Source: an uncultured Gammaproteobacteria bacterium (GTDB lineage Bacteria > Patescibacteriota > Microgenomatia > JAMCZE01). From it: DNA of 64,000 nt. The DNA lies in assembly GCA_964609775.1 (NCBI GenBank), contig CAZSSJ010000001.1, positions 22,858 through 86,857 of the forward strand. The letters run 5' to 3'. Below are positions 5,946 through 27,900 of this stretch, piece by piece (the stretch's first letter is position 1; the number at the start of each line of letters is the position of its first letter). Below the pieces are notes generated by a model, which searched no databases, had not been told where the DNA came from, and was given only the letters and a program-made list of their open reading frames with translations. The position numbers and the translations under genes were made by a program.

Positions 5946-8900
5946 GTGGATAGGAACAAAGCAAAGGGAAAGTACAAGAAGCTTTTAAAGATCGGCGAGG
6001 CTGCGGCTGTTCTTGGCGTTTCCATTGACACGCTGCGCCGGTGGGACCAGGAAGGCAAGTTGAGTTCAATTAAGACCCCCGGGGGGACGAGATATTACTC
6101 CCTGGGCGATTTGCGCAAGATTAACCCTGAAGTCGGGGAGATTATCAAAACAGAAAAGCAGGAAAGGGCGTTTGACCTGACAGCTCTTTCTGAGGAGGCG
6201 AGGCGGGAATATTTGGAAAGCCCGATTGGAAGCCGGGGTGGCCAGCTTGCTCGACCAGGTCAGTCAAAGCGCATCAGTGGGGTCAGTTACCCGAGTCAGG
6301 TGGCGAAAGAAGCAGAGGCTGGGCTTCGAGCGAGAAAGCTGGCCTTGGGGGCGGCTTTGGCTGCAGTTGTTATAGGGTTGGTAGCGACTGGGGTTGTGGC
6401 GCTTCGAGGGACAGGATTGTTTAGGGGGGATTTGGTGAAGACCGGGAGTGAGAGGGAAGGTGCGGGTGAGGTTCTAGCTATTACCGCAGGGAAGAGCTTT
6501 TTGGAGATCGGGGCGGAGACGGTGTTTAAGGATCGGGTCGACTTTGGCGGTTCGGCCGACGGCTTTTCCGTTTTTGGGGGAGACACGGTGTCGCGGCGGC
6601 TGACGGTGACGGGGGCGGATGTGGCCTTAGACCAATCTCTGACGGCATCGTCTTCGCCGACGTTTGCTTCTTTGAAGCTTAGCGGGACGAGTGATCAGAT
6701 TGTGGTTGGGGGAAACGGAACGCTGACTTGGACACCAACGGCGGCGCGGACGGTGACATTTCCCGACGCGACTGGAACGGTTGTTCTGGACACGGCCACT
6801 CAAACCCTGTCAAACAAGTCACTTTCCGGATCAAGTAACACCTTCACGAACATTCCGAATTCGGCGCTGTCGAACTCGAAGATTACCATCAATGCGGGAA
6901 CAAATCTGGGAGGCGGAGGGGATGTGTCCTTGGGATCGAGTGTAACCATTGACCTGGATGACGCTATTTCCCTGACGTCGGCGACTTTTTCCGGGACGCT
7001 GGGGGTCGGGGGAACGGCTTCGGTCGGCGGGCAGATCATTCTTGACGGAGCGACCGCGGAGATTAACGCCACGAATAACCGGCCGCTGGACTTGGGGTTT
7101 GAGAACACCGGGGCGGTGCGGTTTTTGAACTCGACCAACTATGTTGACAGCAATAATAACTTGTATATCAACGGAGTGTTGGTCGCGGGGCCGACGACAC
7201 AAGGTTATTGGCAGAGGAATTCCGGGGCTTTGGCCCCGACGAATATTACGGACTCTTTGGTCGTCGGGGGGACGGCGACGGCGTCGGGAAAGTTTCAAGT
7301 CTACGGACTGTCGGCTCTTAATCCGGTGGCGAGCATTTCGGGGAGTTCATCGAAGGCCGCGTTCATCGTAGATAACACTGTTGGGGATTTGTTTACCGCT
7401 TCCTCCTCCGGCCTCAACCGTTTTGTGATTACCCAGAATGGAAATGTGGGGATTGGGACAAGCGCTCCGGCCTATAAGCTCGATGTCAACGGGTCGACGA
7501 ATATTGCTAATGGGTTGACGATTGCGGCCGGGAACTTGACTTTGACCGGGTCGCAGTCAATTGACGCGACGGGGATTTTGTCCATCGGGACTTCTAACCA
7601 AACATCGCTTCTTATCGGCCGGGTTGGGGCGCCGACGACGATCTACGGCTCGTCGGTGACGATCAGCTCGAGCACGTTTAGCTCCAATGCGGCGACGATT
7701 TCCGGGACGCTCGGCGTCGGGGGCGAAGCTTCGTTTTCGGCCAAAATTATTCTGGATTCGCCAACCTCGGAGATTAATGCCACGAACAGGCGCTATTTGG
7801 ATCTGGGGTTCATGAACACCGGCGGCGTGCGCTTTCTTAATGACACAAACTACATCACTCCGAGCGGGGATCTGTATTTAGCCGGCAGTTTGATCAGTTC
7901 CGGGACACAGGCGGGCTTCTGGCAGCGGCCGGCGAGCACCGGAGCCCTGGCCCCGATAAATATTACTGACTCACTGCTGATCGGCGGCACGGCGACAAGT
8001 TCAGCAAAATTTCAAGTCTATGGTCTCTCAGCGTTAAATCCGGTGGCGTCAATTTCGGCTTCGTCGGCAGTCGCCGGGCTCATGGTGGACAACACCGTCG
8101 GGGATTTGTTTACGGCAAGCTCATCGGGCTTAAACCGGTTTGTGATTACCCAGAATGGAAATGTGGGGATTGGGACGACGGCTCCAGTTGGACTGCTTGA
8201 TGTCGCGGCAACGGCCCCCTTCGTTATCACTTCGGCGGGCCAGGTCGGCATCGGGACGACGAGCCCGGTGGGACTTCTTCATGTTCAGGGAGCGTGTGTC
8301 ACGGGAGACACGCTGATTCGAGTCCGGCGTAGGAAGAAGAAGAAAAATGGTGACTGGGAAGATGAATGGCTTGATTTGCCAATTAAGCAGCTTAAGGCGG
8401 GGGATGAAGTGATGACACTGGATGAAAGGACGGGGGAGTTTACTACCTCAGTGGTTCGGGAACTCATGGACAAAGGGATTAAAACGACCTTTAAACTGAT
8501 GACCGCTGACGGCAAATCCATCCGGACAACAGCGGAACATCCTTATTTGGTGCAGGAAAGTGGCAGCCCGGACAGTAATTTCCTCTCTGGACTGACTTTT
8601 GCTTCAGTGAAAAAGATCTCCCAAGATTACTATTTCACTGTCTTGTCGGGCCGGAAGGTGGCTGTTAAAGCATTGGACGGCGAGATTGTGCATTTCACTA
8701 GCGAAGGGTTCTCTCATATTACTCACGAGAAGAAGAGCGAATTTGAAATAATGACGAGACTTTTTGCTCTGTCTAAAGTTTTGACGGTTCTGGAAACAGG
8801 TGTCAAAGTTTCTCAGAAAGACAGAAAGATCGTTAACGGCAAAGTTAATGATTATTGGACTTTGGAGGAAGTTGTTGAGGGCGTTTTAACTAAAGTTGTT

Positions 8901-11900
8901 GTCAGGTCGATTGAGGACGGGCCGAAGCAATTTTTGTCAGTTGTTTGGAAGGATAAGACTCCGGAAGCCACAAAAAATGTGGGGGACGTTGCCTCTCGCA
9001 TATTGCAGCGACGTGGACGAATGGTTACGTCTCAACGTAGGGCCCACGAGAAGTTTTATACCACAATTCTGGCCGATTTGTCAAGAGGGGTCTGGGGATA
9101 TAGAGGGATTTCCTTAGCGCAAGACTTAGTTTCCAAAAAGAAATGGGTTAAAGTGCGGTTTTTGAAACCCGGCATGGAGATCGCTACTTTCGGGCCTGAT
9201 GGCCGAATTTCCTGGCAGAAGATTGAGTCCATTGAGAAAGTGGGAGAGGAGCAGGTTTATGACATCGAAGTGGAAAACACTCACAATTTTGTGGCCGGGC
9301 ACTATATAGACAACACCAACCAGAGGGCCCTAATTTCACAGGAAGGAGAGATTCTACTTCGTTATCTGTCTTTTGAACAAAAGGAAGCCGAGGAACAGGG
9401 CGATCATGACCAAAGCAAAACCAATTTGGAAACGATTGAAAAATTCTGTCAGGTCAATCATGATTTTTTGCTCCAACTGTCCAAAATAACCGCCGACAGT
9501 AGACAAATTGTAGCCGAACCAATATTGCCTGTCAACACCCAGGCGTCCTTAATGGCGAAAAGTCCCAAGAGCAGTCCGGCTGCCAAGTCGATAAATAAGG
9601 AAGAAAAAATCTTGAGAACGGAAACCCTCATCGAGGAGAGTATAGAAAAGGTGGAGAACCTTGTCAATCGTTACAGGAAAGGCGAAATTCGGTTCGGTGG
9701 CATTGTGGCGCATAACACGACGGGGAAGGCATTGGTGGATCTGAACTACACCGGGACGGATCAGGCAATTTTGACAGCTTCTGTTTCGGGGACCACGAAA
9801 TTTGTCATTAACAATTCCGGTCAAGTGGGAGTGGGAACCGGAGCAAACAACAATACTTTGCTGGCGGATGTGGATTTGCGGACGCTGACGAACACGGTTC
9901 CGGTGGCTTCAATTGCCGGAAGCACGGGAGTGGCAGCCTTGGTGGTGGACAACGTTTCCGGGGATTTATTTACAGCCAGTAGTTCGGGTTTGAGTCGTTT
10001 TGTGATAGATAGGGGAGGGAATGTGGGGATTTCCTCGACGGCGCCGTCACAGAAACTGGACGTGGTTGGGGCGGTGCGGTTGGGAGCTAACGGGGGGGCC
10101 AATGACATTTTGAACACGACGGTTGGGGGAAGTGCCCCGAGCGGGGTTTTGTATTGGGGAAACAGGACGCTGTGTGACACTTCCGGCAACTGTTCGGGAG
10201 TCGGGGGGATTGTGGCCGGGAGCGGAGTCCAATATTACATTAGCAAATGGACTGATGCTTCCGGCACGACAATCGGCGATTCACTGCTGTATGACCCGGG
10301 CACGTCGGTGGGACTCAACACCACCTCGCCGGCGGCGATTTTTGACATTCGGGGCACGCAGGGAACTTCGGCTCTCTCCGGGACTTTGCCGGTGGCCAGC
10401 ATTTCCGGGAAAACAAGTTTTGCGGCGGTGGTGGTGAACAACGATTCGACGGTCGGGGACCTCTTCACGGCTTCGGCGTCGGGGTTAAGCCGGTTTGTCA
10501 TCACCAATACGGGCAACGTGGGCATTGGCACGGCACTTCCGGCCCAGTTGCTCTCGGTCGCCGGGGCGATCCAGTTAGGGAGCGGTTTGGGAGCAAATGA
10601 TGTTCTGAATACTGCTGCTGCCGGGGGGGTGCCGTCGGGACTGCTCTATTGGGGCAGCCGGGAAGTCTGTGATGCTTCGGGCAACTGCGCCGGAGTGGGC
10701 GGGCAGGTCCAGGGGACGGGAACCCAAAACTATATTACCAAGTGGAACAATGCCGGGGGAACGGCGATCGGGGATTCGCTGCTGTATGATTCCGGCTCGG
10801 CGGTGGGTCTGGGAACAACCTCGCCTTTGGGGACACTCCATGTGGTTGGGCAGTGCGTCGTCTCTGGCACAAGGATTCGGCGGCGACGCCGTCGCCGAGG
10901 CTATGGCGCCCGAGGGGCGGAAGAGTGGGTTGAGGAGGAAGTGCCAATTGAGGAGATTGAGCCGGACGATGAAATTGTGTCATTGAACGTTGAGAAGGGG
11001 CGGTTTGAGTGGCACAAGGTGGAAAAGACCCTTAATAAGGGGCTGCTTGCCGGGATGGCCCTTTCGACTTCGACGGGGAAGAGAATCGTGACCACGGGCA
11101 AACATCCATACCTGATGATCGACAAACCGGAAATTACTCAAGGGACTTTTGAGGTTGACCAATCGATTAAAGTGGAAGATTTGGGCAAGGCGACAATTGT
11201 GGGCTTTGCTTTGGGAAAACTGGCCTTTGCGGTGAAACTTCGACAACAGGACAAAAAGTTGATCCGTAGTGGTTTTCAGAAAGCCGGTAAGGAAGATCTC
11301 TTTGCTCCTTTGACCTTTGCCAATGTAGTGGTTAATCTCTTCCGGGCGGCCCAGATCTATCCGGCTAGAATCGCGCTTGATGAAGAATACACCGGCTTTT
11401 TCGGGGAGATTAAAGATATTATTAAAAAGTCCTTCCCGGATGCAGAGGTTTTTGAGACTAATCTGAAAGATTCTTCAGCTGCTCATCAAAGGGTCTGGGC
11501 GGTCAACAAAGGGAGAGCGAAAGAGGATGTCCTCTTGGTTCTTGAGGGCGGAGAATTAAAAGAAAGGCCGGGAGTTAAATCAACTCTGAGCGGAAGACCT
11601 TTGCCCCTGAATGGTTACAGGGGGACCAGTCAACCCATCGGCCTTTACTATGGTGAATTCTATCACCGAGGGGCGAATTTGTCAACCCCTTCGACAAGCT
11701 CAGGGTTGATAGCGAGAAAGACCGAGCTATCAAGGGCTCGATGGGCCAAAGCTGGAGATATTAGGGTCGGTCAGTATGTGGCGACGGAGGATGGGTTTGA
11801 GAAAGTGACGGGGATTTCTGACGCCGGCCGGGTGCTGATGTACGACCTTTCCGTTGCTAACACCCACAACTTCCTCGCCAACGGGATTGTGGCCCATAAC

Positions 11901-14900
11901 ACCGGGACGATGGCGATCGCGACGGTTTCGGGGGCGACGTCTTTTGCGGCCCTCACCGTGGATAACTCCGGCGTCGGGGATTTGTTTACGGCCAGTTCGT
12001 CTGGCTTAAACAGGTTCGTGATTACCCAGAACGGCAACGTCGGCATCGGGACGACGGCTCCAGTTGGACTGCTTGATGTCGCGGCAACGGCCCCCTTCGT
12101 TATCACTTCGGCGGGCCAGGTCGGCATCGGGACGACCTCGCCGGTGGGACTGCTGCATGTCCAGGGGGCGTGTGTGACGGGGGACACATTGTTGAAACGA
12201 CGGCGTAAGAAATGGCGGACACGCAGGTCCGCCCCTACGGAAATGGGACCGGATCCAGAAGGGGATGCTGAATCCACCAAAAAATCCGCTTACGCGGACT
12301 TGGTAAACCAGATCGGCTTGCTAAATGGCTGGCTTGATACCCTTACGGGTAATATATCAGATGGTGATGAAATTGTCAAGGATCAGATGGGCATGGACCT
12401 GCCGGGAGTTGAACCCGGTAGGCTTGGGGTATCAAGCCAGCCTAGCAAACCTGCCAGGCCCATGCCAATGAATAGTATAGCAGACGATGGTGACTATTAC
12501 TGGGAAGATGTGCGGATTGATGAAATTGAGGCGGGGGATGAAGTGATGACCCTGGATGAAAAGAGCGGGGAGTTTGTAGCCAGCACGGTTAAACAATTGA
12601 TGGTGATGGGGAATAAAAAGATCATTAAACTGACAACCGAGAGTGGAAAGACCATTCGGACAACGGAAAAACACCCTTATCTGGTCAAGGTCAAAGGAGA
12701 AAATCAGAAAACAGCCTTCGCTTTCATTGATGAAACAGGAATTACACTTGATCCCGGCCAACACCATCTTGGGGTGGGGGCTCTTAATAAAAAGGAGGAT
12801 GGTGCCTTAAAAGACACGTTTTGTCAAGGGGGAGGGAAGGTGTTTTGGCGTCAAGTTTCAACTCTCAAACCGGGAATGTTGATCGCGACAGTTGATGGCT
12901 TTGAGAAGATTATCAGGATTGAGGAACTGCCCGAGGAGATGGTTTATGACATTGAAGTGGAAAACACCCACAATTTTGTGGCCGGGCACTATGTCGACCA
13001 GGCTTCACAGACGGCGTTAAAAGCGGAGGAGGAAAAGTTTCTCTGTCTTTATCAACAAAACACGTTAACGAGAGAGTTTTCTCTTTTCGACCTTACCGAA
13101 GAAAATCCAAGCCAGAAAAAGGGCAATAAGCCCCAATCCAACTCCTATCCAGGCAGCGATATAAAATTGATCCAAAGTGGTGATCATATGTTTTCAAATA
13201 GCCAGTCTTCTAATTTGATGGCTATCCAGCTACAGAGCGTAGCAAAGATGAGGTTTGCTGTCAAGGCCAAGATGGGGTTGGACGAAGCGAATGATGCAAA
13301 AGCACCAAATATGAACCCAGTGGATAGGTTTGAGAGTATAGATGAAACTACCTTGACTTGGCTAGGGCGAATATTAAAAGAAAACTCCATTAACTTGACT
13401 TTAGACGAAGCGCTTTGTCTTATCAATAAATATGAGTCTGGGGAAATTGTTTATGGGGGCATTGTGGCGCATAACACGACGGGGAAGGCCCTGGCGAATC
13501 TGAACTACACCGGAACCGATCAGGCAATCTTTACAGCTTCTCAGGGAGGAGTGTTGAAGTTTTCTCTTAATGGCATCGGAACAGAGCATACGGCTTCGGT
13601 GGCGGGGACAACGTCTAAGGCGGCTCTGATTGTGGACAACACAATCGGGGATTTGTTCACGGCCTCGTCATCGGGCTTGGCTCGCTTTGTGATAACACAA
13701 AGCGGCAATGTGGGGATTGGGTCCGCCGCTCCCAGCGTCGCTCTGGATGTCACCGGAGCGGGGAAGACGAGTGGGGCCTTTACGGTGGGGAATAATTTGA
13801 CGGTGACGGCCGGGGGCCTCACGGTGACGGCCGGGAACATTGCCCTGACGGGGTCGCAGACGATTGACGGGACCGGGACGCTGACAATTGGCGGCACTTC
13901 GCAGACGTCGCTGGCGTTGGGGAGGAGCGGGGCGCAGACGACGATTTCCGGCGGGCCGGTGGTCGTCAACGGCGCTTCCTTTGCCTCGGCAGGGACAACG
14001 ACATTCACCGGCGGGAATGTGGGGATCGGGACGACGACGGTGACGGATTTTGCTTTGGAGATGGGCGGGAGCATCGGGCCGGTGACGACCGATCAATATG
14101 ATTTGGGGTCGGCCGCTCTCGAATGGAATAATTTGTATGTCAAAAACATTATTTCAACGGGGACGACGGCCGGATTTTGGCAGCGGGCGTCGGGGGTGCT
14201 GGCTCCGCAGAACATTACAGACTCGCTGATTATTGGCGGGACGGCAACATCCTCCGGGAAATTCCAAGTTTACGGCCTATCGGCTCTTAATCCAGTGGCG
14301 AGCATTTCCGGGTCTTCGGCAGTGGCCGCGCTTATGGTCGATAACACAGTGGGAGATTTATTTACGGCCTCATCGTCGGGACTAAATCGGTTTGTGATTA
14401 CTCAAAATGGAAATGTGGGGATTGGGAGCACGGTTCCTGTATCACGGCTTGATACAGGAGGAGGAACAATTTCACTTAATGGTGGGTGGTTGTCGAATGA
14501 TGGTGGAGCTGAAGGTGTGTTTGTTAAAACAGACGGGAATGTGGGTATCGGGACAAGTGCACCAGCCTATAGGCTTGATGTCGTCCACACCACACCGACT
14601 GCGGCAAATGGCAGTGTGTCACCAGATCAAATAGGATTGAGGGTTAACAGGGCCCACTATGTTGGGACCCCTGGACCCTACCCTAATGCTGTTTATGGCG
14701 TTTTGGGTCAAGGCCAAGCAGGTCAGGGGAGTGCCAGTGTGTCTTATTCCAATACGGTGGGTGCTAGAGGTGTGGCTGGACAAGCAATTGTCAATGTTAC
14801 GGGTGGTGCCAGTGTTACGGGTGCAAGTTCATTGTATGCGTTGAATGCTACGATTACTGCTGGAACTTTATCTAATCAATATGGATTATATGTTGAGTCG

Positions 14901-17900
14901 TTATCCGGGGCCTCCAACAATTATGGAGTTTATGTTGCTGGTAATAATTCCTCGTATTTTGGCGGCAACGTCGGCATCGGGACGACGAGCCCGGTGGGAC
15001 TGCTGCATGTCCAGGGGGCGTGCGTGACGGGGGACACCTTGTTAAAAAGACGACGGAAGCGGAAGAGCAAATATGGTGATTGGGAGGAAGACTATTGGGA
15101 AGACATTAGAATTGATGAGATCGAGGCGGGAGACGAAATATTAACTTTTGACGAAACCACTGGCGGATTTACTGCTTCTCAGGTTAGGGAGCTTATGGAT
15201 ATGGGTAAAAAGACCACGTTTAAGTTGGTAACGGAGGGCGGAAAGGAAATTCGGACGACAGCGAACCATCCTTACTTGGTCAAGTCAGCCAATACGAGTA
15301 ATTTCTTCAATGAGACTTTTAAAGTTGTGGCAGAAATTGCCAGGGCCTATTACTTTGCCACTTTAACGTCCTGGGATCCGATTGCTCCGGCCCTGAATAA
15401 TGAGAGAATAAGTATTTCTGAGGAAGGATGGCATCATCTTCATCATAAAGCCAGAAGCAGGGGAGAAATGTTGACGAGGTATTTTGCACTTCCCAAAGCG
15501 GCCGCTCTTCTTGCCAGCAAAGAAGCTCGCGTGACTTATGAACCCGGTGGGGATGGGGTCTCCGAGTTTTGGTCCCTTTATGGAACAGTTGATGATGTTC
15601 AGGTTAAGGTGGTTGTCCGATCAGTCAATAAAGGTCCGAAGTACTTTTACTCTGTCATCTGGAAGAGCGAAGTTAAAGAAGACACTAAAAAAAGAGCTGC
15701 CTCCTGCTTGTATCCGCAGTGTGGGGGAGTGATTACCCCTCAGCTCTTTAATGAGAGGATTATAGACCAGATGAGTGACTTTGTCAAGAAACGAAAGAGA
15801 GACTACCAGCTGGGCTCGTATCTCTCTGGGGAAGATTCTACTACTAAGTGGGTGAAAGTCAAACAATTAAAGCCCGGGATGGAAATTGCCACGGTGGGCG
15901 GGGATGACCAGATTTCTTGGCAGAAGATCAAATCTATTGAAAAAATCGGGGAAGAACAAGTCTTCGACATCGAAGTGGAAAACACCCACAATTTTGTGGC
16001 CAATGGGATTGTGGCGCATAACACGACGGGGAAGGCCTTGGCGAATTTGAACTATACGGGGACGGATCAGGCGATTTTCACCGCTTCGCAGGGGGGAACG
16101 TTGAAGTTTGCTTTGAATGGGACGGGGACGGATTTTACCGCCAGCGTCGCCGGGACGACTTCGAAGGCGGCTCTCATTGTGGACAACACCGTCGGGGATT
16201 TGTTTACGGCCAGCTCCAGTGGCTTAAACAGATTCGTGATTACCCAGAATGGAAATGTGGGCATTGGAATGGCGACGCCTTCTGCTACATTGGAAGTTAG
16301 AAAAGGTCCAATTCCCTCAACATTTGATTCATCTCTTGCTCTCTATTCTGCTGGTCAGTTTGTCAACACGAACACTAACTGGTATGACACGGAATTAAAT
16401 TTACTTGATACTAGGGACCAAGCTGCAGGAGTTGGCGGAAGGCTTGCTTTCGGTGGCGTTTATAGACAAGTTGGGACTACCAATGTAACAACCTTTGCGG
16501 CGATTGGCGGTTATAAAGAGAATTCTACTAGTGGTGATTATGCTGGATATCTCTCGTTTGAAACCAGACCTAACGGTGGAATTTTTACTGAACAGATGAG
16601 AGTTTCTAGTGCTGGCAACGTCGGCATCGGGACGACGAGCCCGGTGGGACTGCTGCATGTTCAGGGGGCGTGCGTGACAGGGGATACTCTGATTCGAGTA
16701 AGACGGCGCAAGAAGAAGAAGAATGGCGAGTGGGAAGATGAATGGCTGGACGTTCCCATTAAAGATATTCAAGCTGGGGACGAAGTGGCCACTCTGGACG
16801 AAAAGACGGGAGAATTCATCGTCTCCAAGGTTAAACAATTAATGAACATGGGGAGAAAAGTGGTCTTTGAACTTTTGACTGAGTCAGGAAAAGTCGTTAA
16901 AACTACAGAAAATCATCCGTATTTGGTTGACCAATCAGGGAAACAAATGGTCTCTGATCTCAGTGCTATCCAGAAGGAAACTTATGAGTTTGCTGAGAAG
17001 TTAGGAAAGAAATACTATGTGAACAACTTGGCTGGCAGGAAGGTTAAGTCTAGGGCTTTGGGCGAATTTGTCGAGTTTAGTCATTCTGGCTGGAACCATT
17101 TTGTGGAGAAAAGCCATTCAATTAATGAACTTATTACTCGATTCTTTGCTTTGCCTCGGGTGGTTACAGTTATCAGATCTAGTCCCCATGTCACTTCATA
17201 TAACATAGTCGAGAAAAAAGACATGACGATTGAATATTGGGAGTTGCAGGAAATTATTGACCATGTTCTTGTTAAAGTTCTAGTCTGCGCTGTTGATGGT
17301 GGACCGAAGTTTTTCTTGACGTGCACTTGGCTCGGGACAAAAGAGAATGAAGGGGTCAAACCAACTAAAAAAGAGCTGTCTCTCTCGCCTAGATCCCGCG
17401 AAATGCAGGACCAGTTGGGTCGACGTCGGGAACTGGTTATCCCTCAGCTCTTTAGTAGGGTGATTATACCAAAGAAAGTCAAGTGGGTCAAGGTCAAGGA
17501 TTTGACTGTAGGTGTGACTATTGCTACCAAAGATGGCTGGGAGAAAGTAGTTTCCATTAAAAAATTGGATGAACAACAAGTTTATGACATTGAAGTGGAA
17601 AACACCCACAATTTCGTGGCCAATGGGATCGTGGCGCATAACACGACGGGCAAGGCCTTGGTGGATCTGAACACCACCGGAGATCAGGCGGTCTTTACGG
17701 CTTCAGTTTCTGGAACGACGAAATTTGTGATTAACAATTCGGGGCAGGTGGGAGTAGGGACGGGGGCAAACAACAATACCCTTTTGGCGGATGTGGATTT
17801 GCGGACGCTGACAAACACTGTACCGGTGGCTTCAATTTCCGGAAGCACCGGAGTGGCAGCATTGGTGGTGGACAATGTTTCCGGCGATGTGTTTACGGCG

Positions 17901-20900
17901 TCAACTTCGGGATTGAGCCGGTTTGTGATTGACAAGAACGGAAATGTGGGGATCGGGAGTTCGGCTCCAGGATACAAACTGGATGTTTCGGGAACGGCTC
18001 ATGTCACCGGAGCAGTCACTTTAGATACGGCCCTGACGGTGGCCAATGGGGGGACGGGAGCCCAGACATTCACAGACAACGGCGTGCTCTTTGGCAACCT
18101 GACGGCCGCCATTGGAGCGACGGCCGAAGGAGCGACCGGGCAGTGCCTCATCGGGAACACCGGGAGCGCGCCATCATGGTCAGCATGTACCACGGCCTCA
18201 GGGCAGTTGTGGCAGGAAGCTTTGGGAGTGGTCGCGCCGCTGAACATCACGGATTCCCTGATTATTGGGAAGATCGCGACACCCAGCGGGGCCATTACCT
18301 CGGGCAGCATGCAGATTTACGGGGTGAACAACCTGACCCCGGTCGCCTCTATTTCGGGGGTCAGTGCGGTGGCGGCGCTCATCGTGGACAACACCGGCGG
18401 GGATGTCTTCACGGCCAGCACTTCGGGACTGACCAGATTTGTGATTGACAAGAACGGCAACGTCGGGATTGGGACAACGAGCCCGGATTATCCACTTGTA
18501 GTAGTAGGGACAGCTTCTGACGGAACACGGACACTTGAGGTAAAAAATTCAGTTGCTGGTAGTATATCTAATTTCCAAGTAACAGGTGATGGTGTCAACG
18601 CTCGCCTTATGGCGTTGTCTAGTTCGTATTCATCATCCGGGGCTTATGCTGCTGATACAGTTGTCTTAGACGACGATCAGGGTTACGCTGCTGGCCTTAC
18701 ACTACTTGCCCGTAATTCAAGTGGGTATATCCGAATGTTTACAGGCGGTTTTGATGACGGAAATGAGCGTCTGAGAATTAACAGCACTGGCAACGTCGGC
18801 ATCGGGACGACGAGTCCGGTGGGACTGCTGCATGTTCAGGGACAATGCGTCATTGCCGGAACAAAAATTAAAAGAAGAAAGAAGAAAGAAAAAAGAAGAA
18901 AGCAAGACACTGCCGGAACGGGGCCGGATCCGGTCGGCGATTGGGACTATGAAGATGTTCCCATCGAACAGATCGAACCGGATGATGAGATTCTTTCCCT
19001 AAACCAGGAAAAGGGCCAGTTTGAGTGGCACAAGGTGGAACAAACCATGAATAAAGGACTCCTGCCGGCCTTGGCTCTGACAACTTCTACTGGAAAGAGA
19101 ATTGTCACGACGGCAAAACATCCATATTTGGCGATCGATCGGCCGGAAACTACTCAAGGGACTTTTGAGGTGGATCAATCAATCAAGATCGAGAATTTGG
19201 GGGCGGCAAGCATTATAGGGTTTGCCCTGGGGAAACTAGCTTTTGCCGTTAAGCTGCCGCAGAAGGATAAGAAGATTATTCTCGCTCGTTATCAGAAGAA
19301 GAACCAAAAAGATGTTTTTGCCCATGAGACTTTTGCCCGATGTGTGGTTGCCGCCTTTAAGATTGCCCGGATTTATCCAGCGAGAATTGCTCTCGATGAA
19401 GAATACACCAGTTACTTCCGAAGAATCGAGAGCGTTATTAAGGAAAGTTTCCCTGACAGCGAGATTTTTCAAACCAACCTTAAGGATGGTTCCGCCGCCC
19501 ACAAAAAGGTCTGGGCTGTTAATAGGGGAATTTTAAGAGAGGATGCTGTTCTAAGTTTGGAATCGGGAGAATTAAAAGAAAGGCCGGGGGTTAAATCAAC
19601 CTTCAGAATGCCTTTGCCCCTGGTTGGTTACAGGGGGACCAGTCATCCACACGGCCTTTACTATGGAGAATTCTACTCCACGGAGCGGGAATTGTCAAGA
19701 GCAAAGTGGGTTAAGGCCGCGGAGGTTAGGAAAGGGATGTGTGTGGCGACGGAGGATGGTTTTGAGAAGGTCACAGGGATTTCCGATGCGGGGCAGGTGG
19801 CGATGTATGATCTGCAAATTGCCAACACTCACAATTTTGTGGCCAATGGGATTGTGGCGCATAACACGACGGGGAAGGCCCTGGTGGATCTGAACACCAC
19901 CGGGGACCAGGCGGTGTTCACCGCCAGTGTTTCCGGAAACACCAAGTTTGTGATTAACAATTCAGGACAGGTGGGAGTGGGAACCGGAGCAAACAACAAC
20001 ACGCTGCTGGCCGATGTGGATTTGCGGACGCTGACAAACACGGTTCCGGTGGCTTCAATTGCCGGGAGCACGGGGGTGGCGGCTCTGGTTGTGGACAATA
20101 CAGCCGGGGATCTTTTCACCGCCTCGTCAAGTGGGCTATCAAGATTTGTGATTGACAAGAACGGGAATGTGGGGATTGGGACGGCGGCGCCGACGGCTCT
20201 GGTGTCTTTAGCTAACTCGAACTATACGACGCAAAACATGTTGAACGTGGCGGGGACGTCGACAGGGTTGACGACCGGGTCACTGGCGAGTTTTGACTGG
20301 AGTCCGACGGACTGGTCGACCTCGAGCGGGAATTTGGTGAATATTAATCTTGGCAGTTTGGCCGACACGACGGGAAACATCTTTAATATTTCCGATGACG
20401 GCAGCTCGATCTTCTCGGTTTCGCCGCAGCAGATTGTCAACTCGTTGCCAACGTCATTTAATGCCGCCGGAGATGTGGCGATTGCCTATGACATTAATTT
20501 CACCAATCCGACGGCATCATACATTAAATCTGCTGCACCCATGTATTTGCAGGCAGGGGAGCTATTTAATTCCTCGGATTTGACGTTGAAGACCTTTAAC
20601 AAAGGCTTGATTGTTCTGGATCCAGATGAAGCGGTCACAATTGATGGGGCGGCTTCTGTGTCGGGGCAGCTCATGGTCGGCAGTACGACAGCGGCGCCGG
20701 CGCAGTTTGGCAAGTTCTATGTGACGGACTCTAACACGGCCACTTCTTCAGCCTTCATTGAAAACACTAACACAGCTGCAGCAATTTCGGGTTTGGTCAT
20801 TAAGCTGGGGAGTACGACCCTGGACACCACCTCGCATTTTGTTAATTTTCTTGATTTGAACGGCAAGATGATTGGCAACATTCGGGCAGCTAACACGACA

Positions 20901-21923: not shown

Positions 21924-21971
21924 GCTGGCTTGCCCTGAGCTTGTCGAAGGGTGGATTGTGAATTAACGAAA

Positions 21972-24900
21972 ATGAAACAAATTAGACGGATTAGACTAAT
22001 TGGTCTAATTAGGCCAATTTGGGCAAAAAAATTAGGGATTTTTTTGCTCTCGGCGACGATTATCGTCGCCGGACTGCTCGTTTTCTGGGTGAACAGGAAC
22101 GGGGGGAAGGTCGAGGCGGCGTGGTTTGATGATTCCTGGGGCTACCGGCAGATTATAACTCTCACCAATAACGGGTCGACGCAGACGGATTATCAGGTGC
22201 AGGTGGTGGTGGGGACGGGCGATCTTATTGCCGCGGGGAAGATGCAATCTGACTGCAATGATTTGCGGTTTACGGATCTTTCCGGAAAGGTCCTTTCCTA
22301 TTGGACGGAATATTGCCGGTCAGGGGCGGGGAAAAATTCCTCGGTTTGGGTGACGATTCCCACCCTGACAACGACACCGGCACCTATATATATGTATTAC
22401 GGAAACCCGTCTGCGGCAACGGCGAGCACGTTTCGGTCTTTGCCGACGGGGATTAATTTGGGGGATGGGGCCGATGGGGCGGCGACTGTTTCGGGGACGG
22501 TGAACTTTAATTCGACGACGATTTCCGGACGGACGGAGGCTGATGGAGTCAATCCGGCGTCAACGGTGCTGACGGCGCTGGGGAGCACGACGATTACGGC
22601 GACGGCTGCGGCGGGGCTTTCCGTCGGGGATGAGGTTTTGATTATTAATCTTCAGGGGACGACTTCTGATTACGGAAATGTGGGAAAGTATGAAACGGCA
22701 AGGGTGACGGCGATTAATGGAGCTGTTTTAACTCTTAACCATCCTCTTGTTAATGCCTATGATGGGACGACACAAAAAATCATGGTCCAGCGGGTGCCGA
22801 ACTATTCGAGCGTGACGGTGTGCACGGGCAGCGCCGATCCGGTGGCCGGGTGTGCTTCGGCAGGAACGTTGAATCCTGCATCGTGGTCGAGCGGAAACGG
22901 GACAGGAGGGGTGGTCATGCTACGGGCCACGGGGACGGTGAATGTGGCGGCGTCGGGGAGCATTTCTGGAGCAGGTTTAGGTTATGCGGGAGGGGCGGGA
23001 GGCCCGGCGGGAGCAAAGGGCGGATATGGGGGAGACAGCTATGATGGGGATAATCCGCGAGGCGGATGTGCGGATTCAAGCTGTACGGCCGGGGTGGGTG
23101 GCGGGAAATCTGGGTCGGCGACCGGAGCTTCGCCAAATAGCGGTGGAACCCGCGGTGGAGGCGGCGGAGGGGGATCTGACGGGGCGACTAACGGGACTGG
23201 CGGCGGGGCGGCCGGAGGCGGCGGGGGTTATGGCGGAGGCGGAGGCGGAGGCGGAGCCAATGGTGATGGCTATGTGGCTCTTCCAAGCACTGCGAATGGA
23301 GGAACGGGCGGAAGTGGAGGCTCAACAGGAACTTCTGCGGGTGGTGGAGGAGGGGGTTGCCGGGACAATGATGGTGATAACACAGCCGGGGCCAACGGGG
23401 GAAATGCCGGCAGTGCCGGGTCAAATGGTAGTGCGAGCTGTTCGGGGACGGCAGGCACGGGGGGCGAAGTAGGGTCGGGAGCAACGAGCGGAAGCGGGGG
23501 CGGAGGGGCTGGAGGAGGTCTTGGTTCGGGCGGCGGGGGCGGAGGCGGAGGAACGTATGGCACGGCGGCTTTGACGACAATTTTTTTGGGAAGCGGCGGC
23601 GGGGGCGGTGGAGGGACAACAGCAGGAGTGGACTTTGCCGGAGCAGCCGGGGCGGCAGGCGGAGGAATCGTTTACATCAGTGCCGGGACAGTGACAGTCG
23701 CCGGGGCAGCTTCGGCCAACGGAGCCGATGGGACCACTCCTGACGCGCAAACTGGCAGTGGGGGGGCCGGGGCCGGAGGATCAGTTTTTATTTCAGGAGC
23801 CACAGTGACGCTGGGGAGCAGCTTAGTTTCAGCAACCGGAGGAGCTGCAGGTGCAGCTGATCAGGCAATCGCCGGATCCGGCGGAGGCGGAGTAGGACGG
23901 ATTGCGGTGAATTATTCAACGAGCACCGGTTCGACTAATCCTTCAGCTGGATCCACCTCCACATTGCCGGTCGCCGGGTCGCCATCGACGGAAGAAAAAG
24001 GCAACGGGCCGGTGGCTTTCTGGCACCTTGACGACGGCCAGGGAACAGTAGCCCAAGATTCAACGACGAATGGAAATGCTGGGACACTTTCGGGAACAAC
24101 TCTGCCCAGCTGGCAGACGGAGGACTTGTGCGTTTCGGGCAAGTGTCTCTATTTTAATGGGATTACTTCCAATGTGACGGCGGGGACAGTGAATGCGGTG
24201 CAAACCGTGTCTTTCTGGGTCAGGCCGGCGAGTGTTTCGGCCTCACTGGTGCAGTTGGCAAGCGGGGTCGATGTTAAAGCGGCTTCAGGAGTAGTCGGGA
24301 CTGACGGCTTTACTGCACCGACGATCTATGTCAACGGGGCCAAGGTGACAGGCAGCTCGGCGACGCCGTTTGCAGCCAGTCAATGGAATTTTGTGACGGT
24401 GACGACGGGGACAGGGATTACAGCAAATGCCATTACCTTGGGGAAAATGCAGACGGGAGTGTTAAACGGGTTTTTGGATGAAGTGAAACTCTATCACTAT
24501 GCCCGGAGTGCGGCGCAGGTGAAGGCAGATTATGCCAATTCGGGAATTAATAAAGGGACGGGAAGTGTTCTGGGGGCGGATCCGGATCAAGTGAATCGGA
24601 CGTTATCAAATGGGCTAGTTGGGTATTGGAAGATGGATGAAAGCGGGGCTGGTAGCTGCACAGGCGGAGCCAATGACAGCTGCGATTCATCCGGCAACGG
24701 CAATGACGGCAACTGGGTTAATCAAGCAGCGAACACGGGAGGAAAGTTCGGTAATGGAGTTATCTTTGACGGCGTCAATGACACGGTCGATGTGGCCCAA
24801 TCCAGCAGTCTTAATGGAGTAACCGATGACATTACCGTCTCGGCCTGGATCAAAACCACCGCTACAGGCGGGGGTCTGACCGACAATACATTTATCAGCA

Positions 24901-27900
24901 AAGAGACAGCGGGTTGCGGTTCAGGCTATAGCGACTGGTTTATCCATTTATTAAACGGCACCGTCAAGTTCTGGACATCCGGATCAGAGTGTACGGCCGT
25001 GGCATCCAATGCCACAGTCAATGACGGCAGTTGGCATCTCGTGACCGTGACACGAAAAAGATCAGACGGCAATCATATTATCTATATTGACGGGCAGTAT
25101 GATACTTCAAAAATCGGAAATACCGGTTCAATCGGCAACGCGGAAGATCTTTATTTCGGAACCATAAACGGAACGGCATCAGACTATACCGGTAGTCTCG
25201 ACGAAGTCCGGATCTATAACCGTGTCCTGTCTCCTGCCGAAGTCTCCATTCTTTACCAGTTTGCCGCCGGGCCGGTGGGGTATTGGAAGATGGAGGAAGG
25301 GGCGGGAACAACGGCCGCGGATTCCAGCGGCAATGGCTATACCACGGCGGCATTTACGGGAAACACCGCTTGGACAGCGGGGAAATTTGGCAAAGGGCTG
25401 ACCTTTGACGGAGACGGAGATTACGCCAGCATTACGGATGCTTCCGGAGTAAAGATTGATCTTGGGGCAACGACCGATTCATATACAGTCTCCGGGTGGG
25501 CAAAGACGTCGACCGATGGTTCGGGTAATGCCACGATCGTGGAGAAAAATGATGGATCTGGAGCCTATCCGTTTAGCTTGTATCTGAATTCTTCGGAACA
25601 TGCCTGTTTTCAGATTTCCGACGGGACCAATGCGCCTTCGGCCTGCGGATCGACGGCTTTGAGTGATGGCGCTTGGCATTATCTCACGGGCGTGCGGGAT
25701 GTTGGAGCAGACAAGGTCTATATTTATGTTGACGGGGTGCAGATCAATTCGGCGACGGATTCGACCACGGCCACAGCGGCCAATGGCGATGACACATCAA
25801 TCGGAAACGGCGGAACCTCTTATACAACGAATGATTTTACCGGACAAATTGACGAGGTGAGGATTTACAACTATTCGCGCAGCCCAAAACAAATTATAGA
25901 AGACTTAAATGTCGGGCACCCGACTGGGGGAAGTCCAATCGGCACAGCACATGGCTACTGGAAATTTGATGATGGGCGGGGAACGACAGCTTATGATTCC
26001 GGGGCCAGCCCGAATAATGGAGTTCTAACCAGTATGAACTTAGTGACCTCAGTTGGTATTTCCGGCTGGAACCCGAATGGGAAGTTTAATAAGGCATTAT
26101 CGTTTGACGGGAGCAATGATAACGTGGACTTCGGGGATCTTTCCTACACTGAAGGTGCTTCCAGTTTAAGCTGGAGTTTTTGGGTTAATCCGAATTCGGT
26201 CGCGGCGACGAAGTGTTTGTGGTGTAAATATAATAATGCGGCAACAGAGCGGTCGTGGGCGATTGAAAGCGGAACAACTAATGCTTCGGCGATTAGGGCC
26301 ACGCTGCCAACGAGCACGACGGAAGCGGATGGCACAACATACGGAGAAACACCGACCGGACAACTTAGTGTCGGAGTTTGGACCCACGTGGCAGTGGTCT
26401 ATGACGGAAATGCTTCAGGTAATTTGAACCGGCTGAAGATATATATTAATGGTGTTAAGCAGAATCTGGCTTTTGCCGGGACGATTCCGGCAACGACTCA
26501 GGCCACCACTTCCACGGCTAACGCTGGCGAAAGCTCCGATGGAGCCAGAAATTTTTCAGGCACACTTGATGAGATGAAGATCTACGGCGGGGCGCTGACA
26601 GAGGCTGAAGTGAAGTTGGATTATAACCGAGGGTCGGCAATTTCTTTGGGAGTTTTGGGAACTTCGACGGCCGACGGGAAGACCGCGTCAAGTTCGGCTG
26701 GGTCGGCTTATTGCCTGCCGGGAGATACCACAACGTGTAACCCGCCGGTGGCGGAGTGGCCTTATGAAGAAGGCCAGGGGACGAGCGTGGCTGACACGAG
26801 CGGAAACAACAACACGATGACTCTAAGCGCCGCCAGTCAATGGACGCATGGAGTCATCGGTCGCGGCATCACCTTCAACGGCACGAGCGACACGGCTGAT
26901 TACGGAGATGTGAATAATAAATTTGACAGCGTGACCAAGCTCACGGTGACGGCTTGGTTTAAGAAACCAAGCGTCGGGGGAAAAGTTTATATTGCCACGA
27001 AGGGCAGCGGCGCCAACGCGACACGTTTTGAACTGTCGGCTTTAACTGATGGTTTGATCTATTTTGTTGTCAGAAACGGGGTGTTATCGACAGCGTCCAC
27101 ATATAGCAATGACACGAATTGGCACCATGTGGCGCTGGTTTTTGATGGGACCCAAACGGGCAATGCCAATCGGTTGAAGGGGTTTATTGATGGCACGGCG
27201 CGCGCTCTGACTTTCTCAAACACTGTTCCGAGCTCGACGGGAAACTATGGCACCGCGAAGCTTTATTCCGGCTATCATGAATGGTTTAACCTGTATTCGG
27301 CCGGATATGTTGACCAGATGCGGGTTTTTGATTACCCCTTGACAGCGGCTCAAGTGGCCAACAACTATAACCGCGGCCTGCCTGCATCCTGGTGGAAGTT
27401 TGATGAGTGTCAGGGAACGGTAGCCAATGACTCAATCGCAACCATATCGGGTACGCTAAACGGTGGGACACCGGGAGACTGTAATACCGCAAGTACTGCC
27501 TGGGCCAATGGAAAAACAGGAAAGTTTAATTACTCATTAAAATTTGGCACTACACCCGATCTTACTACAGTGACTTCGACCAGTACGTATCCTTTTAGCC
27601 AAGTCAGCAGCCCTCCGGTATCATGGGGCGGATGGTTTTATCCGACTAGTTCGGTAAACAGTCAGGCATTTATCGATAAAAAGGATCAATTCCGGCTTTA
27701 CACCGACGGATCCGGAAATGCAATCTGCGGGGTGGCAACGGCTGCCGGATCCTACACCGATGCCTCATCGGTGACAGCTCCGATAACCTTAAATACCTGG
27801 AATCATGTACTTTGCACTTATGATGGTACCACTAGCTTGAAAACCTATGTAAATGGAATATTAAAAAATACTTCAACCATCTCTGTCGATATGTTTCTCA

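What the first reader, a model, noticed from the sequence alone, without database searches (positions are those of the whole stretch)
8172..8260. 89-nt perfect DNA repeat ahead of inteins 1 and 3, and near-identical N-extein junction DNA at all six sites
8172-8260 is identical to 12048-12136 (constant offset of 3,876 nt). It encodes ...GTTAPVGLLDVAATAPFVITSAGQVGIGTT just before both inteins. The last ~50 nt before every intein (ggcaacgtcggcatcgggacgacgagcccggtgggactgctgcatgt.caggg) are nearly invariant, whereas other GNVGIGT repeats in the gene have diverged. This points to recent gene conversion or co-transfer of flanking extein DNA with the intein, which is the expected footprint of homing.
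Basis: seen in the sequence. Interest (0 to 1): 0.5.

Follow-up and report, generated by a model that had tools for sequence, protein, structure and literature searches.

The report
Gene-conversion patches flanking six inteins
The 89-base perfect repeat and the near-identical DNA beside five of the six inteins in this giant surface-protein gene are real, but they look like short patches of DNA copied between repeated parts of the gene, not like the trace of a recent intein jump.

Summary
Observation: mostly confirmed. 8172-8260 equals 12048-12136 exactly (89 nt). It is far longer than chance allows inside a 240-nt paralogous stretch that is 87% identical (P<5e-6). The ~57 nt before inteins 1, 3, 4, 5 and 6 are near-identical (NG86 dS median 0.25). 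Other repeats of the gene have dS of about 1.2. The HINT halves of the inteins range from 0.75 (I1-I3) to saturated. "All six sites" is wrong: the intein 2 flank is unrelated DNA (28/54 nt).

Interpretation: partly supported. Gene conversion fits. A recent homing footprint does not:
- The inteins next to near-identical flanks are old and differ in type.
- The 89-nt tract stops 34 nt short of the intein, and those 34 nt hold 8 differences.
- Inteins 2 and 6 are the same type but have unrelated flanks.
- The identity islands run into the intein 3' ends of different intein types.

Other multi-intein Patescibacteria genes show similar patches at varying places.

Context: the inteins belong to a widespread Patescibacteria family. 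It sits at one position of the GNVGIGTTSP..LHV.G repeat of tail-fibre-like proteins and carries nuclease-like inserts that are not classical homing endonucleases. Homing may explain where the inteins sit. It does not explain this repeat.

The parts
5946..21923 (+). Host gene, 5325 aa. It has an N-terminal MerR-type HTH, a hydrophobic (putative membrane-spanning) stretch, a long GNVGIGT-repeat 'tail-fibre-like' body, and a weak C-terminal Peptidase_G2 intramolecular-chaperone-like hit. Six in-frame inteins interrupt it.
   Evidence: Single open frame. Pfam MerR/HTH_17 at aa 13-58 and Peptidase_G2 (E 7e-5, below cut-off) near the C-terminus. The membrane-spanning reading of the hydrophobic stretch is my own reading of the translation, not a prediction tool result.
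8172..8260 (+). Copy 1 of the 89-nt perfect repeat. It lies in the N-extein upstream of intein 1 and ends 34 nt before the intein.
   Evidence: Exact identity to 12048-12136. Run-length permutation P<5e-6.
12048..12136 (+). Copy 2 of the 89-nt perfect repeat. It lies in the N-extein upstream of intein 3 and ends 34 nt before the intein.
8096..8335 (+). 240-nt paralogous segment, 87% identical to 11972-12211, that contains the perfect tract. It has 12 mismatches in the 76 nt upstream of the tract (11 at third codon positions, the twelfth a synonymous CGG/AGG). It has 8 mismatches in the 34 nt between the tract and the intein, and 12 more in the first 41 nt of the intein.
   Evidence: the repeat finder family D9; mismatch map.
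8238..8294 (+). N-extein junction unit of intein 1 (GQVGIGTTSPVGLLHVQGA).
12114..12170 (+). N-extein junction unit of intein 3 (GQVGIGTTSPVGLLHVQGA).
14964..15020 (+). N-extein junction unit of intein 4 (GNVGIGTTSPVGLLHVQGA). 56/57 nt identical to that of intein 5.
16614..16670 (+). N-extein junction unit of intein 5.
18789..18845 (+). N-extein junction unit of intein 6 (…LHVQGQ).
10797..10853 (+). N-extein junction unit of intein 2 (SAVGLGTTSPLGTLHVVGQ). Same motif, unrelated DNA (28/54 nt). This is the exception to 'all six'.
8295..9716 (+). Intein 1 (474 aa). Type A insert, plus a ~160-aa insertion between THNFVA and GGIVAHN.
   Evidence: Pfam Intein_splicing E 1.4e-14; alignment.
10854..11900 (+). 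Intein 2 (349 aa). Type B insert (RNase H-like fold).
   Evidence: Pfam; alignments.
12171..13475 (+). Intein 3 (435 aa). No central insert. It has an N-terminal ~85-aa insertion and the same kind of C-terminal insertion as intein 1.
15021..16022 (+). Intein 4 (334 aa). Type A insert.
16671..17642 (+). [not shown]
18846..19865 (+). [not shown]
9702..9730 (+). C-junction identity island at intein 1 (last 15 nt of the intein plus the first 14 nt of the C-extein).
13461..13489 (+). C-junction identity island at intein 3.
15987..16037 (+). C-junction identity island at intein 4. 51 nt exact to 19830-19880 (intein 6, a different intein type).
17628..17656 (+). C-junction island at intein 5 (2 mismatches to the others).
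19830..19880 (+). C-junction identity island at intein 6.

Best explanation
The 89-nt perfect repeat, the ~57-nt near-identical N-extein units and the ~30-50-nt islands across the C-junctions are short tracts of intragenic (ectopic) gene conversion. In other words, the paralogous 'repeat unit + intein' modules of one very repetitive gene evolve in concert.

Shown:
- The modules themselves are old. Intein bodies have saturated synonymous divergence and carry different insert domains.
- Only short patches at the most conserved motifs are near-identical: GNVGIGTTSPVGLLHVQGA, HNFVANGIVAHN and TTGKAL.
- Their boundaries do not respect the intein/extein border on the C side.
- On the N side the patches stop where intein homology collapses.

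Inferred:
- The patches arise by RecA-type short-patch repair between misaligned paralogous modules.
- They persist because near-identical segments keep converting one another, while segments that have diverged past the homology threshold (intein interiors, the other repeats) cannot.
- The intein 1 and intein 3 modules are older segmental duplicates. They share a flank architecture found nowhere else in the gene and a C-terminal intein insertion, with dS 0.75. A later conversion event of at least 89 nt overwrote part of their flank.

The patches are not the co-conversion tract of a recent homing event among these six inteins.
For: - Significant perfect run inside diverged paralogous DNA: 0/89 mismatches, against 12/76 upstream and 8/34 downstream.
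- Flank dS is 0.06-0.44. The HINT halves of the inteins range from dS 0.75 (I1-I3) to not computable, and other extein repeats have median 1.2. Same-codon fractions: 0.83 for the flank, 0.37-0.63 for most intein segments (up to 0.72 in the short C-terminal HINT segment), 0.47 for other repeats, 0.35 by chance.
- Adjacent segments group the sites differently. N-flank: {4,5} closest. Intein type: {1,4,5}, {2,6}, {3}. C-extein module: {1,5,6}, {3,4}.
- Exact tracts also lie inside inteins and across C-junctions of different intein types: 51 nt I4/I6 and 35 nt I3/I5; the 29-mer.
- I2 and I6 are the same intein type with unrelated flanks.
- This DNA is not conserved across genomes. A 44-nt flank pattern with 8 free positions has 0 hits in 185,579 species genomes and in 241 million metagenome records.
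- Other multi-intein genes of the same family show the same kind of patch at varying places. L039: flank 18/19 same codons against intein 0.37. L079: last 12 intein codons 12/12 and C-flank 20/20, but N-flank 4/10. L007: intein 5' ends 0.9 with flanks 0.47-0.68. L002 and L017: none.
- No RNA-structure signal (z -1.2 to +0.3) and no Rfam family.
Against: - The other strongly conserved peptide repeat of the gene (36 codons, 11 copies) is not homogenised (dS 1.2). Conserved protein sequence alone therefore does not explain why the junction units are. Something made the junction units near-identical more recently. That could be module spread linked to intein insertion.
- Intein presence correlates perfectly with the 'LHV' variant of the unit (6/6, against 0 of 10 other units). 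This is what a site-specific homing process would leave.
- No read-level or population data could be examined, so the direction, age and frequency of conversion events are inferred from one assembled sequence.
Confidence: 0.6

Rival explanations
1. Homing-site explanation. The five near-identical flanks are the DNA target of the intein-encoded nuclease(s), with or without a short co-conversion tract. Five different inteins of one target specificity each invaded a near-identical empty unit recently, from donors outside this window (other genes of the genome or other cells). The flanks therefore look young while the inteins, drawn from an old and diverse pool, look old.
For: - All six 'LHV' units of the protein are occupied, and none of the 10 other GNVGIG units is.
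- Across 77 loci, 68 of 94 LH[VI].G. units are followed by an intein.
- The family sits at the same position of the same motif in many Patescibacteria genomes.
- An unoccupied homologous site exists in L058...KLHVDGT-TTGKALTILN.
- The inserts look like nucleases. Type B has an RNase H-like fold with invariant D/E/D/H. Relatives carry NYN domains.
- Junction units use a codon haplotype distinct from intein-free units.
Against: - It needs five separate recent invasions by five diverged inteins into one gene.
- It does not explain identity islands that include the intein's own last 15-36 nt between different intein types.
- It does not explain the 89-nt tract, which lies 34 nt away from the junction.
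- I2 shows that the family tolerates an unrelated flank DNA.
- No classical homing endonuclease domain was found.
- In other genomes the flanks of same-gene inteins are often not homogenised.
Confidence: 0.22
2. Remnants of tandem or segmental duplication of whole modules (flank + intein + flank). The junction DNA is then kept by selection at the nucleotide level, for example an RNA structure, a protein-binding site, or codon choice needed for co-translational folding at the splice junction.
For: - The I1 and I3 modules do look like old duplicates. They share a unique flank architecture and a C-terminal intein insertion, and have the lowest intein dS, 0.75.
- The junction units are rich in G or C at third codon positions, by my reading of the sequences shown.
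Against: - Folding energies of the flank and junction RNAs are not unusual (z -1.24, -1.19, +0.31, -0.95), and there is no Rfam match.
- The DNA is not conserved in any other genome or metagenome searched. Relatives encode the same peptide with other codons.
- Duplication alone predicts equal divergence of flank and intein, which is not seen.
Confidence: 0.08
3. Assembly artefact. Short-read assembly of a repetitive gene produced chimeric joins or copied consensus sequence between repeats.
For: - Most related contigs in public data are short or broken.
- The Daviesbacteria homologue changes frame several times inside inteins.
- P0001, a protein-level assembly from SRR3989338, joins the extein after intein 5 to the extein after intein 1.
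Against: - A 15,978-nt frame stays open across all six inteins. The stretches read directly contain no N.
- Every intein has matching N and C halves.
- An 89-nt repeat is shorter than common reads and large assembly k-mers (my inference). Each copy is embedded in unique, diverged sequence on both sides.
- A chimeric join could swap contexts but would not create the repeat.
- Independent data (P0001) reproduce the C-half of intein 5 and its C-junction at 99% identity.
Confidence: 0.05

Closest known systems
Intragenic / ectopic gene conversion (concerted evolution) between repeats of bacterial surface-protein genes
   Same: Short perfect tracts lie inside diverged paralogous repeats. The genealogies are mosaic. 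Homogeneity is seen within a gene, not between genomes.
   Different: Here the homogenised patches cluster at the borders of inserted inteins rather than across the repeat family as a whole. The other conserved repeat of the gene is not homogenised.
Co-conversion of flanking exon or extein markers during homing of inteins and group I introns (discussed for the haloarchaeal MCM inteins in PMC10643990, which also cites SegG-mediated co-conversion in phage T4)
   Same: Near-identical DNA directly abuts the insertion point on the N side, together with a short stretch of the C-extein.
   Different: The neighbouring inteins are not copies of one another. The longest tract is detached from the junction. 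The islands include intein-internal DNA shared by different intein types.
Class 1 inteins with a nested homing endonuclease (e.g. PI-SceI, PI-PfuI) inserted at conserved sites of conserved proteins (PMC2814812)
   Different: The host is a repetitive, variable surface protein, so one gene offers many target sites (six occupied here; at least 7 in locus L007). The inserts are not LAGLIDADG or HNH. They are RNase H-like, an unassigned alpha+beta domain with a weak LPD3 hit, or NYN in relatives. A K/R-rich loop follows block A.
Bacterial intein-like (BIL) domains in hypervariable surface proteins (Amitai et al. 2003, as cited in PMC2814812)
   Different: These elements keep all intein nucleophiles, including the +1 Thr. 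They sit at one fixed position of a conserved motif, and the exteins are contiguous in an intein-free homologue. BILs are reported in non-conserved regions (PMC2814812).

Membership tests
Gene-conversion tract between paralogous repeats | A run of identity significantly longer than expected from the divergence of the surrounding paralogous alignment | tested here: met
   89 matches in a row with 32 mismatches in 240 nt: 0 of 200,000 permutations. Third positions only: P 1.2e-4.
Gene-conversion tract between paralogous repeats | Adjacent segments support different relationships among the copies (a mosaic) | tested here: met
   The N-flank, the intein type and the C-extein module each group the six sites differently. 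Exact tracts join different intein types.
Gene-conversion tract between paralogous repeats | Homogeneity is specific to the gene or genome and not conserved across lineages | tested here: met
   0 hits for the flank DNA pattern in genome and metagenome collections. Relatives use other codons and other flank peptides.
Co-conversion tract left by recent homing | The tract is contiguous with the insertion point | tested here: not met
   The 89-nt tract ends 34 nt before the intein, with 8 mismatches in between. The shorter ~57-nt units do abut the junction.
Co-conversion tract left by recent homing | The mobile element next to the tract is as similar between copies as the tract is | tested here: not met
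   I4/I5: flank 56/57 nt, but 51% aa identity over the first 110 intein residues, 62% in the C-terminal HINT segment, and dS not computable. I1/I3: dS 0.75. The insert domains differ.
Co-conversion tract left by recent homing | The element encodes an active site-specific DNA endonuclease | tested here: inconclusive
   [not shown]
Class 1 intein | HINT fold | tested here: met
   [not shown]
Class 1 intein | Catalytic residues: Cys/Ser1, block B TxxH, C-terminal His-Asn, and +1 Cys/Ser/Thr | tested here: met
   All six start with Cys, contain TT..HPY, end in VAHN and are followed by Thr.
Class 1 intein | The exteins are contiguous in an intein-free homologue (insertion, not a domain of the host) | tested here: met
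   L058 encodes ...KLHVDGT-TTGKALTILNETG... without an intein. L028, L030 and L054 have HN|TTGKAL....
Class 1 intein | Protein splicing actually occurs | not testable with these tools
   Needs expression and mass spectrometry or a gel assay.
Bacterial intein-like (BIL) domain | Lacks the +1 nucleophile and/or sits in non-conserved regions of the host | tested here: not met
   +1 Thr is present at all six. The insertion is at one fixed position of the most conserved motif.

The most novel reading that the evidence does not exclude
This would be an undescribed intein family of Patescibacteria that specialises on a peptide repeat (GNVGIGTTSP..LHV.G|T) of giant tail-fibre-like surface proteins. 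One gene then offers many target sites and can accumulate six or more inteins. The inteins carry interchangeable nuclease-like cargo (RNase H-like, NYN, an LPD3-like alpha+beta domain) in place of classical homing endonucleases. Under this reading the junction homogeneity seen here is maintained by breaks that these nucleases make at or near their own target motif, which drives local conversion between modules. The repeat would then be an indirect product of intein mobility after all.
Probability: 0.2. Interest if true: 0.7.

Novelty: new variant of a known kind. Interest (0 to 1): 0.4.

Why it matters
The repeat itself is ordinary. It is a short gene-conversion tract in a repetitive gene, and it should not be cited as evidence of recent intein homing.

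What matters is the setting.
- Inteins are normally found at conserved sites of conserved, mostly informational proteins (PMC2814812).
- Here one intein family repeatedly occupies a repeat motif of a variable surface protein. Six copies sit in one gene, and they carry non-classical nuclease-like inserts.
- Comparable multi-intein genes exist in many Patescibacteria genomes.
- I found no paper describing this in the searchable library.

Such genes give a natural system in which intein spread, intein divergence and extein conversion can be compared site by site within a single gene.

Tried and rejected
- RNA-level function of the conserved DNA. Folding z-scores for the flank, the 89-nt tract and the C-junction were unremarkable and there was no Rfam hit. 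Rejected.
- Minus-strand ORFs overlapping the repeat (11771-12280, 6831-7298). No Pfam hits. Treated as spurious.
- Cross-genome conservation of the flank DNA. The exact-pattern scans of genome contigs and metagenome contigs found nothing. The source population therefore could not be examined, and no intein-free allele of this very gene was found.
- DNA for P0001, the 99% identical fragment. It is not on record. It comes from a protein-level assembly of SRR3989338, so its apparent recombinant join cannot be told apart from a chimera.
- Daviesbacteria locus L001/L007 as a clean comparison. It shifts frame inside inteins, so it was used only with caution.
- Phage origin of the gene. The neighbours are ATP synthase subunits, LamG, dockerin/cohesin and amylase genes, so this looks chromosomal.
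- Literature searches for a prior description of this intein family (intein + CPR / Patescibacteria / NYN / tail fiber). Nothing relevant turned up.
Full report
**1. What is there**

The finding lies in a single 15,978-nt open frame (5946-21923, + strand, 5325 aa).
- The protein starts with a MerR-type HTH followed by a hydrophobic stretch.
- It continues as a long repetitive body built around the motif ...VDNTVGDLFTASSSGLNRFVITQNGNVGIGT...
- It ends with a weak Peptidase_G2 intramolecular-chaperone-like hit. This makes it a tail-fibre-like surface protein.
- The neighbours are ATP synthase subunits upstream and LamG, dockerin/cohesin and amylase genes downstream. The context is chromosomal, not phage.

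Six inteins interrupt the gene: 8295-9716, 10854-11900, 12171-13475, 15021-16022, 16671-17642 and 18846-19865.
- All six pass the Pfam Intein_splicing cut-off.
- All begin with Cys, contain TT..HPY, end in VAHN and are followed by Thr.

**2. The observation**

- 8172-8260 is identical to 12048-12136, and the match cannot be extended by one base. It is the longest exact repeat in the two large genes.
- It sits inside a 240-nt ungapped paralogous stretch (8096-8335 vs 11972-12211) with 32 mismatches. Twelve are in the 76 nt upstream, none in the 89 nt, and eight in the 34 nt between the tract and the intein start.
- A run this long never occurred in 200,000 permutations. With third codon positions only, P = 1.2e-4.
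- So the repeat is real and non-random, but it is not 'just before' the inteins.

The second claim, nearly invariant DNA before every intein, holds for five sites.
- The 19 codons GNVGIGTTSPVGLLHVQG[A/Q] of I1, I3, I4, I5 and I6 share 46-56 of 57 nt.
- I4, I5 and I6 match a 47-mer with 0, 0 and 1 mismatches.
- Intein 2 has the same motif at the protein level (SAVGLGTTSPLGTLHVVGQ) but only 28/54 identical nt, and a different C-extein.

**3. Is the junction DNA special within the gene?**

Yes.

| Segment | Same-codon fraction among identical residues | NG86 dS |
|---|---|---|
| N-flank, 19 codons, five sites | 0.83 (149/180) | median 0.25, range 0.06-0.44 |
| Last 12 intein codons | 0.77 | not computed |
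| First 10 C-extein codons | 0.80 | not computed |
| Other conserved repeat, 36 codons, 11 copies | 0.47 | median 1.2; 12 of 55 pairs saturated |
| Intein HINT halves | mostly 0.37-0.63 | 0.75 for I1-I3; otherwise 1.5 or more, or not computable |
| Expected from codon usage | 0.35 | n/a |

- The heptad G(N/Q)VGIGT next to an intein always uses ggc aac/cag gtc ggc atc ggg acg (64/64). Intein-free heptads mostly use gga aat gtg ggg att ggg.
ATTGTGGCGCATAAC|ACGACGGGGAAGGC is exact at I1, I3, I4 and I6, with two mismatches at I5. I4 and I6 share 51 exact nt across the junction.

**4. Why this is not the footprint of a recent homing event among these copies**

Homing copies the intein together with its flanks, so flank and intein should be equally similar. 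They are not.
- **The inteins fall into three types**. I1, I4 and I5 carry one insert (type A). I2 and I6 carry another (type B). I3 has none but has an N-terminal insertion. I1 and I3 share a ~160-aa insertion between THNFVA and GGIVAHN.
- **Near-identical flanks border diverged inteins.** I4 and I5 have flanks differing at 1 of 57 nt. Yet they are 51% identical over their first 110 residues, 62% in the C-terminal HINT segment and 27% in the insert, with saturated dS.
- **I2 and I6 are the same type** (66-74% aa identity) yet share 1 of 13 flank codons. I6 shares its flank with inteins of other types.
- **The three partitions disagree.** N-flank: {4,5} closest. Intein type: {1,4,5}, {2,6}, {3}. 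C-extein module: {1,5,6}, {3,4}.
- **Exact tracts also lie within inteins** (35 nt, I3/I5) and include the last 15-36 nt of inteins of different types. That DNA cannot belong to an empty target site.
- **The 89-nt tract is detached from the junction**.

Together these features describe a mosaic made by short-patch gene conversion between paralogous modules. The I1 and I3 modules look like older segmental duplicates: they share a flank architecture found nowhere else in the gene, and their intein dS is 0.75. A later patch overwrote part of their flank.

**5. Other explanations tested**

- **RNA structure.** Folding energies of the flank, the 89-nt tract and the C-junction are ordinary (z -1.24, -1.19, +0.31, -0.95). 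There is no Rfam match.
- **DNA-level constraint shared by the family.** A 44-nt flank pattern with eight free positions has no hit in 185,579 species genomes or 241 million metagenome records. Relatives encode the motif with other codons.
- **Assembly artefact.** It cannot be excluded without reads. However, the frame stays open across all six inteins, each intein has matching halves, and both copies of the repeat are embedded in unique diverged sequence. An independent fragment (P0001, SRR3989338) reproduces the C-half of I5 and its junction at 99% identity. That fragment then switches to the extein that follows I1. It comes from a protein-level assembly, so this may be a chimera.

**6. Comparison with related genes**

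The intein family is abundant in Patescibacteria.
- 133 protein hits, and 370 confirmed matches among GTDB species representatives.
- It almost always lies between ...GNVGIGTTSPxxKLHVxGQ and TY(I/L)xGNVGIGT... or TTGKAL....
- Multi-intein genes are common. L007 has seven N-junctions. L058 is a 5641-aa open frame with at least five inteins. L078 and L079 are open frames of 3787 and 3278 aa with three and four inteins.

Applying the same flank-versus-intein comparison gives patches whose location varies.

| Locus | Result |
|---|---|
| L039, one pair | flank 18/19 same codons; intein 0.37 |
| L079, one pair | last 12 intein codons 12/12 and C-flank 20/20; N-flank 4/10 |
| L078 | C-flanks 0.81-0.88; N-flanks 0.58-0.68 |
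| L007 | intein 5' ends 0.9; flanks 0.47-0.68 |
| L002, L017 | no homogenisation |

This is what stochastic conversion between modules predicts. It is not what a fixed functional DNA element predicts.

**7. What speaks for a link to intein mobility**

- All six 'LHV' tripeptides of the 5325-aa protein are intein-adjacent. Ten other GNVGIG units (LDV, LSV, LEV, LVV and similar) are intein-free.
- Across the 77 fetched loci, 68 of 94 LH[VI].G. units are followed by an intein.
- L058 contains an unoccupied homologue of the site used here...KLHVDGT-TTGKALTILN. L028, L030 and L054 have an intein in front of TTGKAL.
- Relatives carry NYN domains in the same slot.
- The type A insert has only a sub-threshold LPD3 hit and no fold match.
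- Site-specific spread is therefore plausible for the family. It may explain why the junction units became near-identical more recently than the other repeats. The present data cannot show this, and the repeat by itself is not evidence for it.

**8. Verdict**

- Best explanation: short-tract intragenic gene conversion (confidence 0.6).
- Main rival: independent recent invasions of a conserved target from unseen donors (0.22).
- The repeat is an ordinary phenomenon. The setting is an apparently undescribed, repeat-targeting intein family with non-classical inserts, six to a gene, and that is the more interesting part. No paper on it was found.
[quoted passage not shown] Multi-intein interference has been studied for four sites in haloarchaeal MCM (PMC10643990).

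Noticed in passing
window 9702-9730, 13461-13489, 16008-16036, 17628-17656, 19851-19879; also 15987-16037 vs 19830-19880: A second DNA identity island spans the C-junction: the last 15-36 nt of the intein plus the first ~15 nt of the C-extein. It is exact at four sites and is shared by different intein types (51 nt between I4 and I6).
   Followed up: yes
[not shown]
   Followed up: partly
[not shown]
   Followed up: partly
window 9282-9716 and 12969-13475; 12200-12500: Inteins 1 and 3 carry a ~160-aa insertion between the THNFVA strand and the final GGIVAHN strand (27% identical to each other). Intein 3 also has a ~85-aa insertion after the K/R-rich loop. Neither has a family assignment. Relatives L001/L004 show a similar '...DDIEYGGIVAHN' ending.
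   Followed up: no
window, first ~20 codons of every intein (e.g. 8316-8345, 10875-10900, 18870-18910): A run of 6-12 Arg/Lys follows block A (CVTGDTLIRVRRRKKKKNG...). It is present in most members of the family in other genomes. Its purpose is unknown; nucleic-acid binding is one possibility.
   Followed up: no
window 5946-21923 (protein positions 778, 1631, 2070, 3020, 3570, 4295): Every 'LHV' tripeptide of the 5325-aa protein is followed five residues later by an intein. The ten other GNVGIG units, with D/S/E/V in place of H, have none.
   Followed up: yes
L058 15403-15500 (Patescibacteria MAG, contig JBMORX010000010.1): This is an unoccupied homologue of the insertion site used in the window: ...GNVGIGTTSPLTKLHVDGT-TTGKALTILNETG... 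It lies in a 5641-aa open frame that carries at least five inteins elsewhere.
   Followed up: partly
P0001 (SRR3989338, protein-level assembly): A 283-aa fragment is 99% identical to the C-half of intein 5 and its downstream extein. It then switches to the extein that follows intein 1, at VDNVSG|DLFTASSSGLSRFVIDRGG. It is either a natural recombinant in a related population or an assembly chimera.
   Followed up: partly
L001/L007 and L004/L010 (Candidatus Daviesbacteria GCA_016187035.1): The homologous MerR-HTH giant gene has at least seven inteins, and a second locus has several more. The reading frame changes several times inside inteins, which suggests either pseudogenisation or mis-assembly. 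Within each locus the flanks share one peptide (SPLANLHVVGQ against SPAGALHVVGQ).
   Followed up: partly
window 12033-12056: The intein-free GNVGIGTT unit 27 codons upstream of intein 3 carries the 'junction' codon haplotype (ggcaacgtcggcatcgggacgacg). Its paralogue upstream of intein 1 (8157-8180) carries the 'intein-free' haplotype. This looks like a further conversion patch bordering the 89-nt tract.
   Followed up: partly
window 21951-28067: The next gene encodes a 2038-aa protein with five Laminin_G_3 (concanavalin-like) domains and a DUF2341 domain. It has no GNVGIG repeats and no inteins.
   Followed up: no
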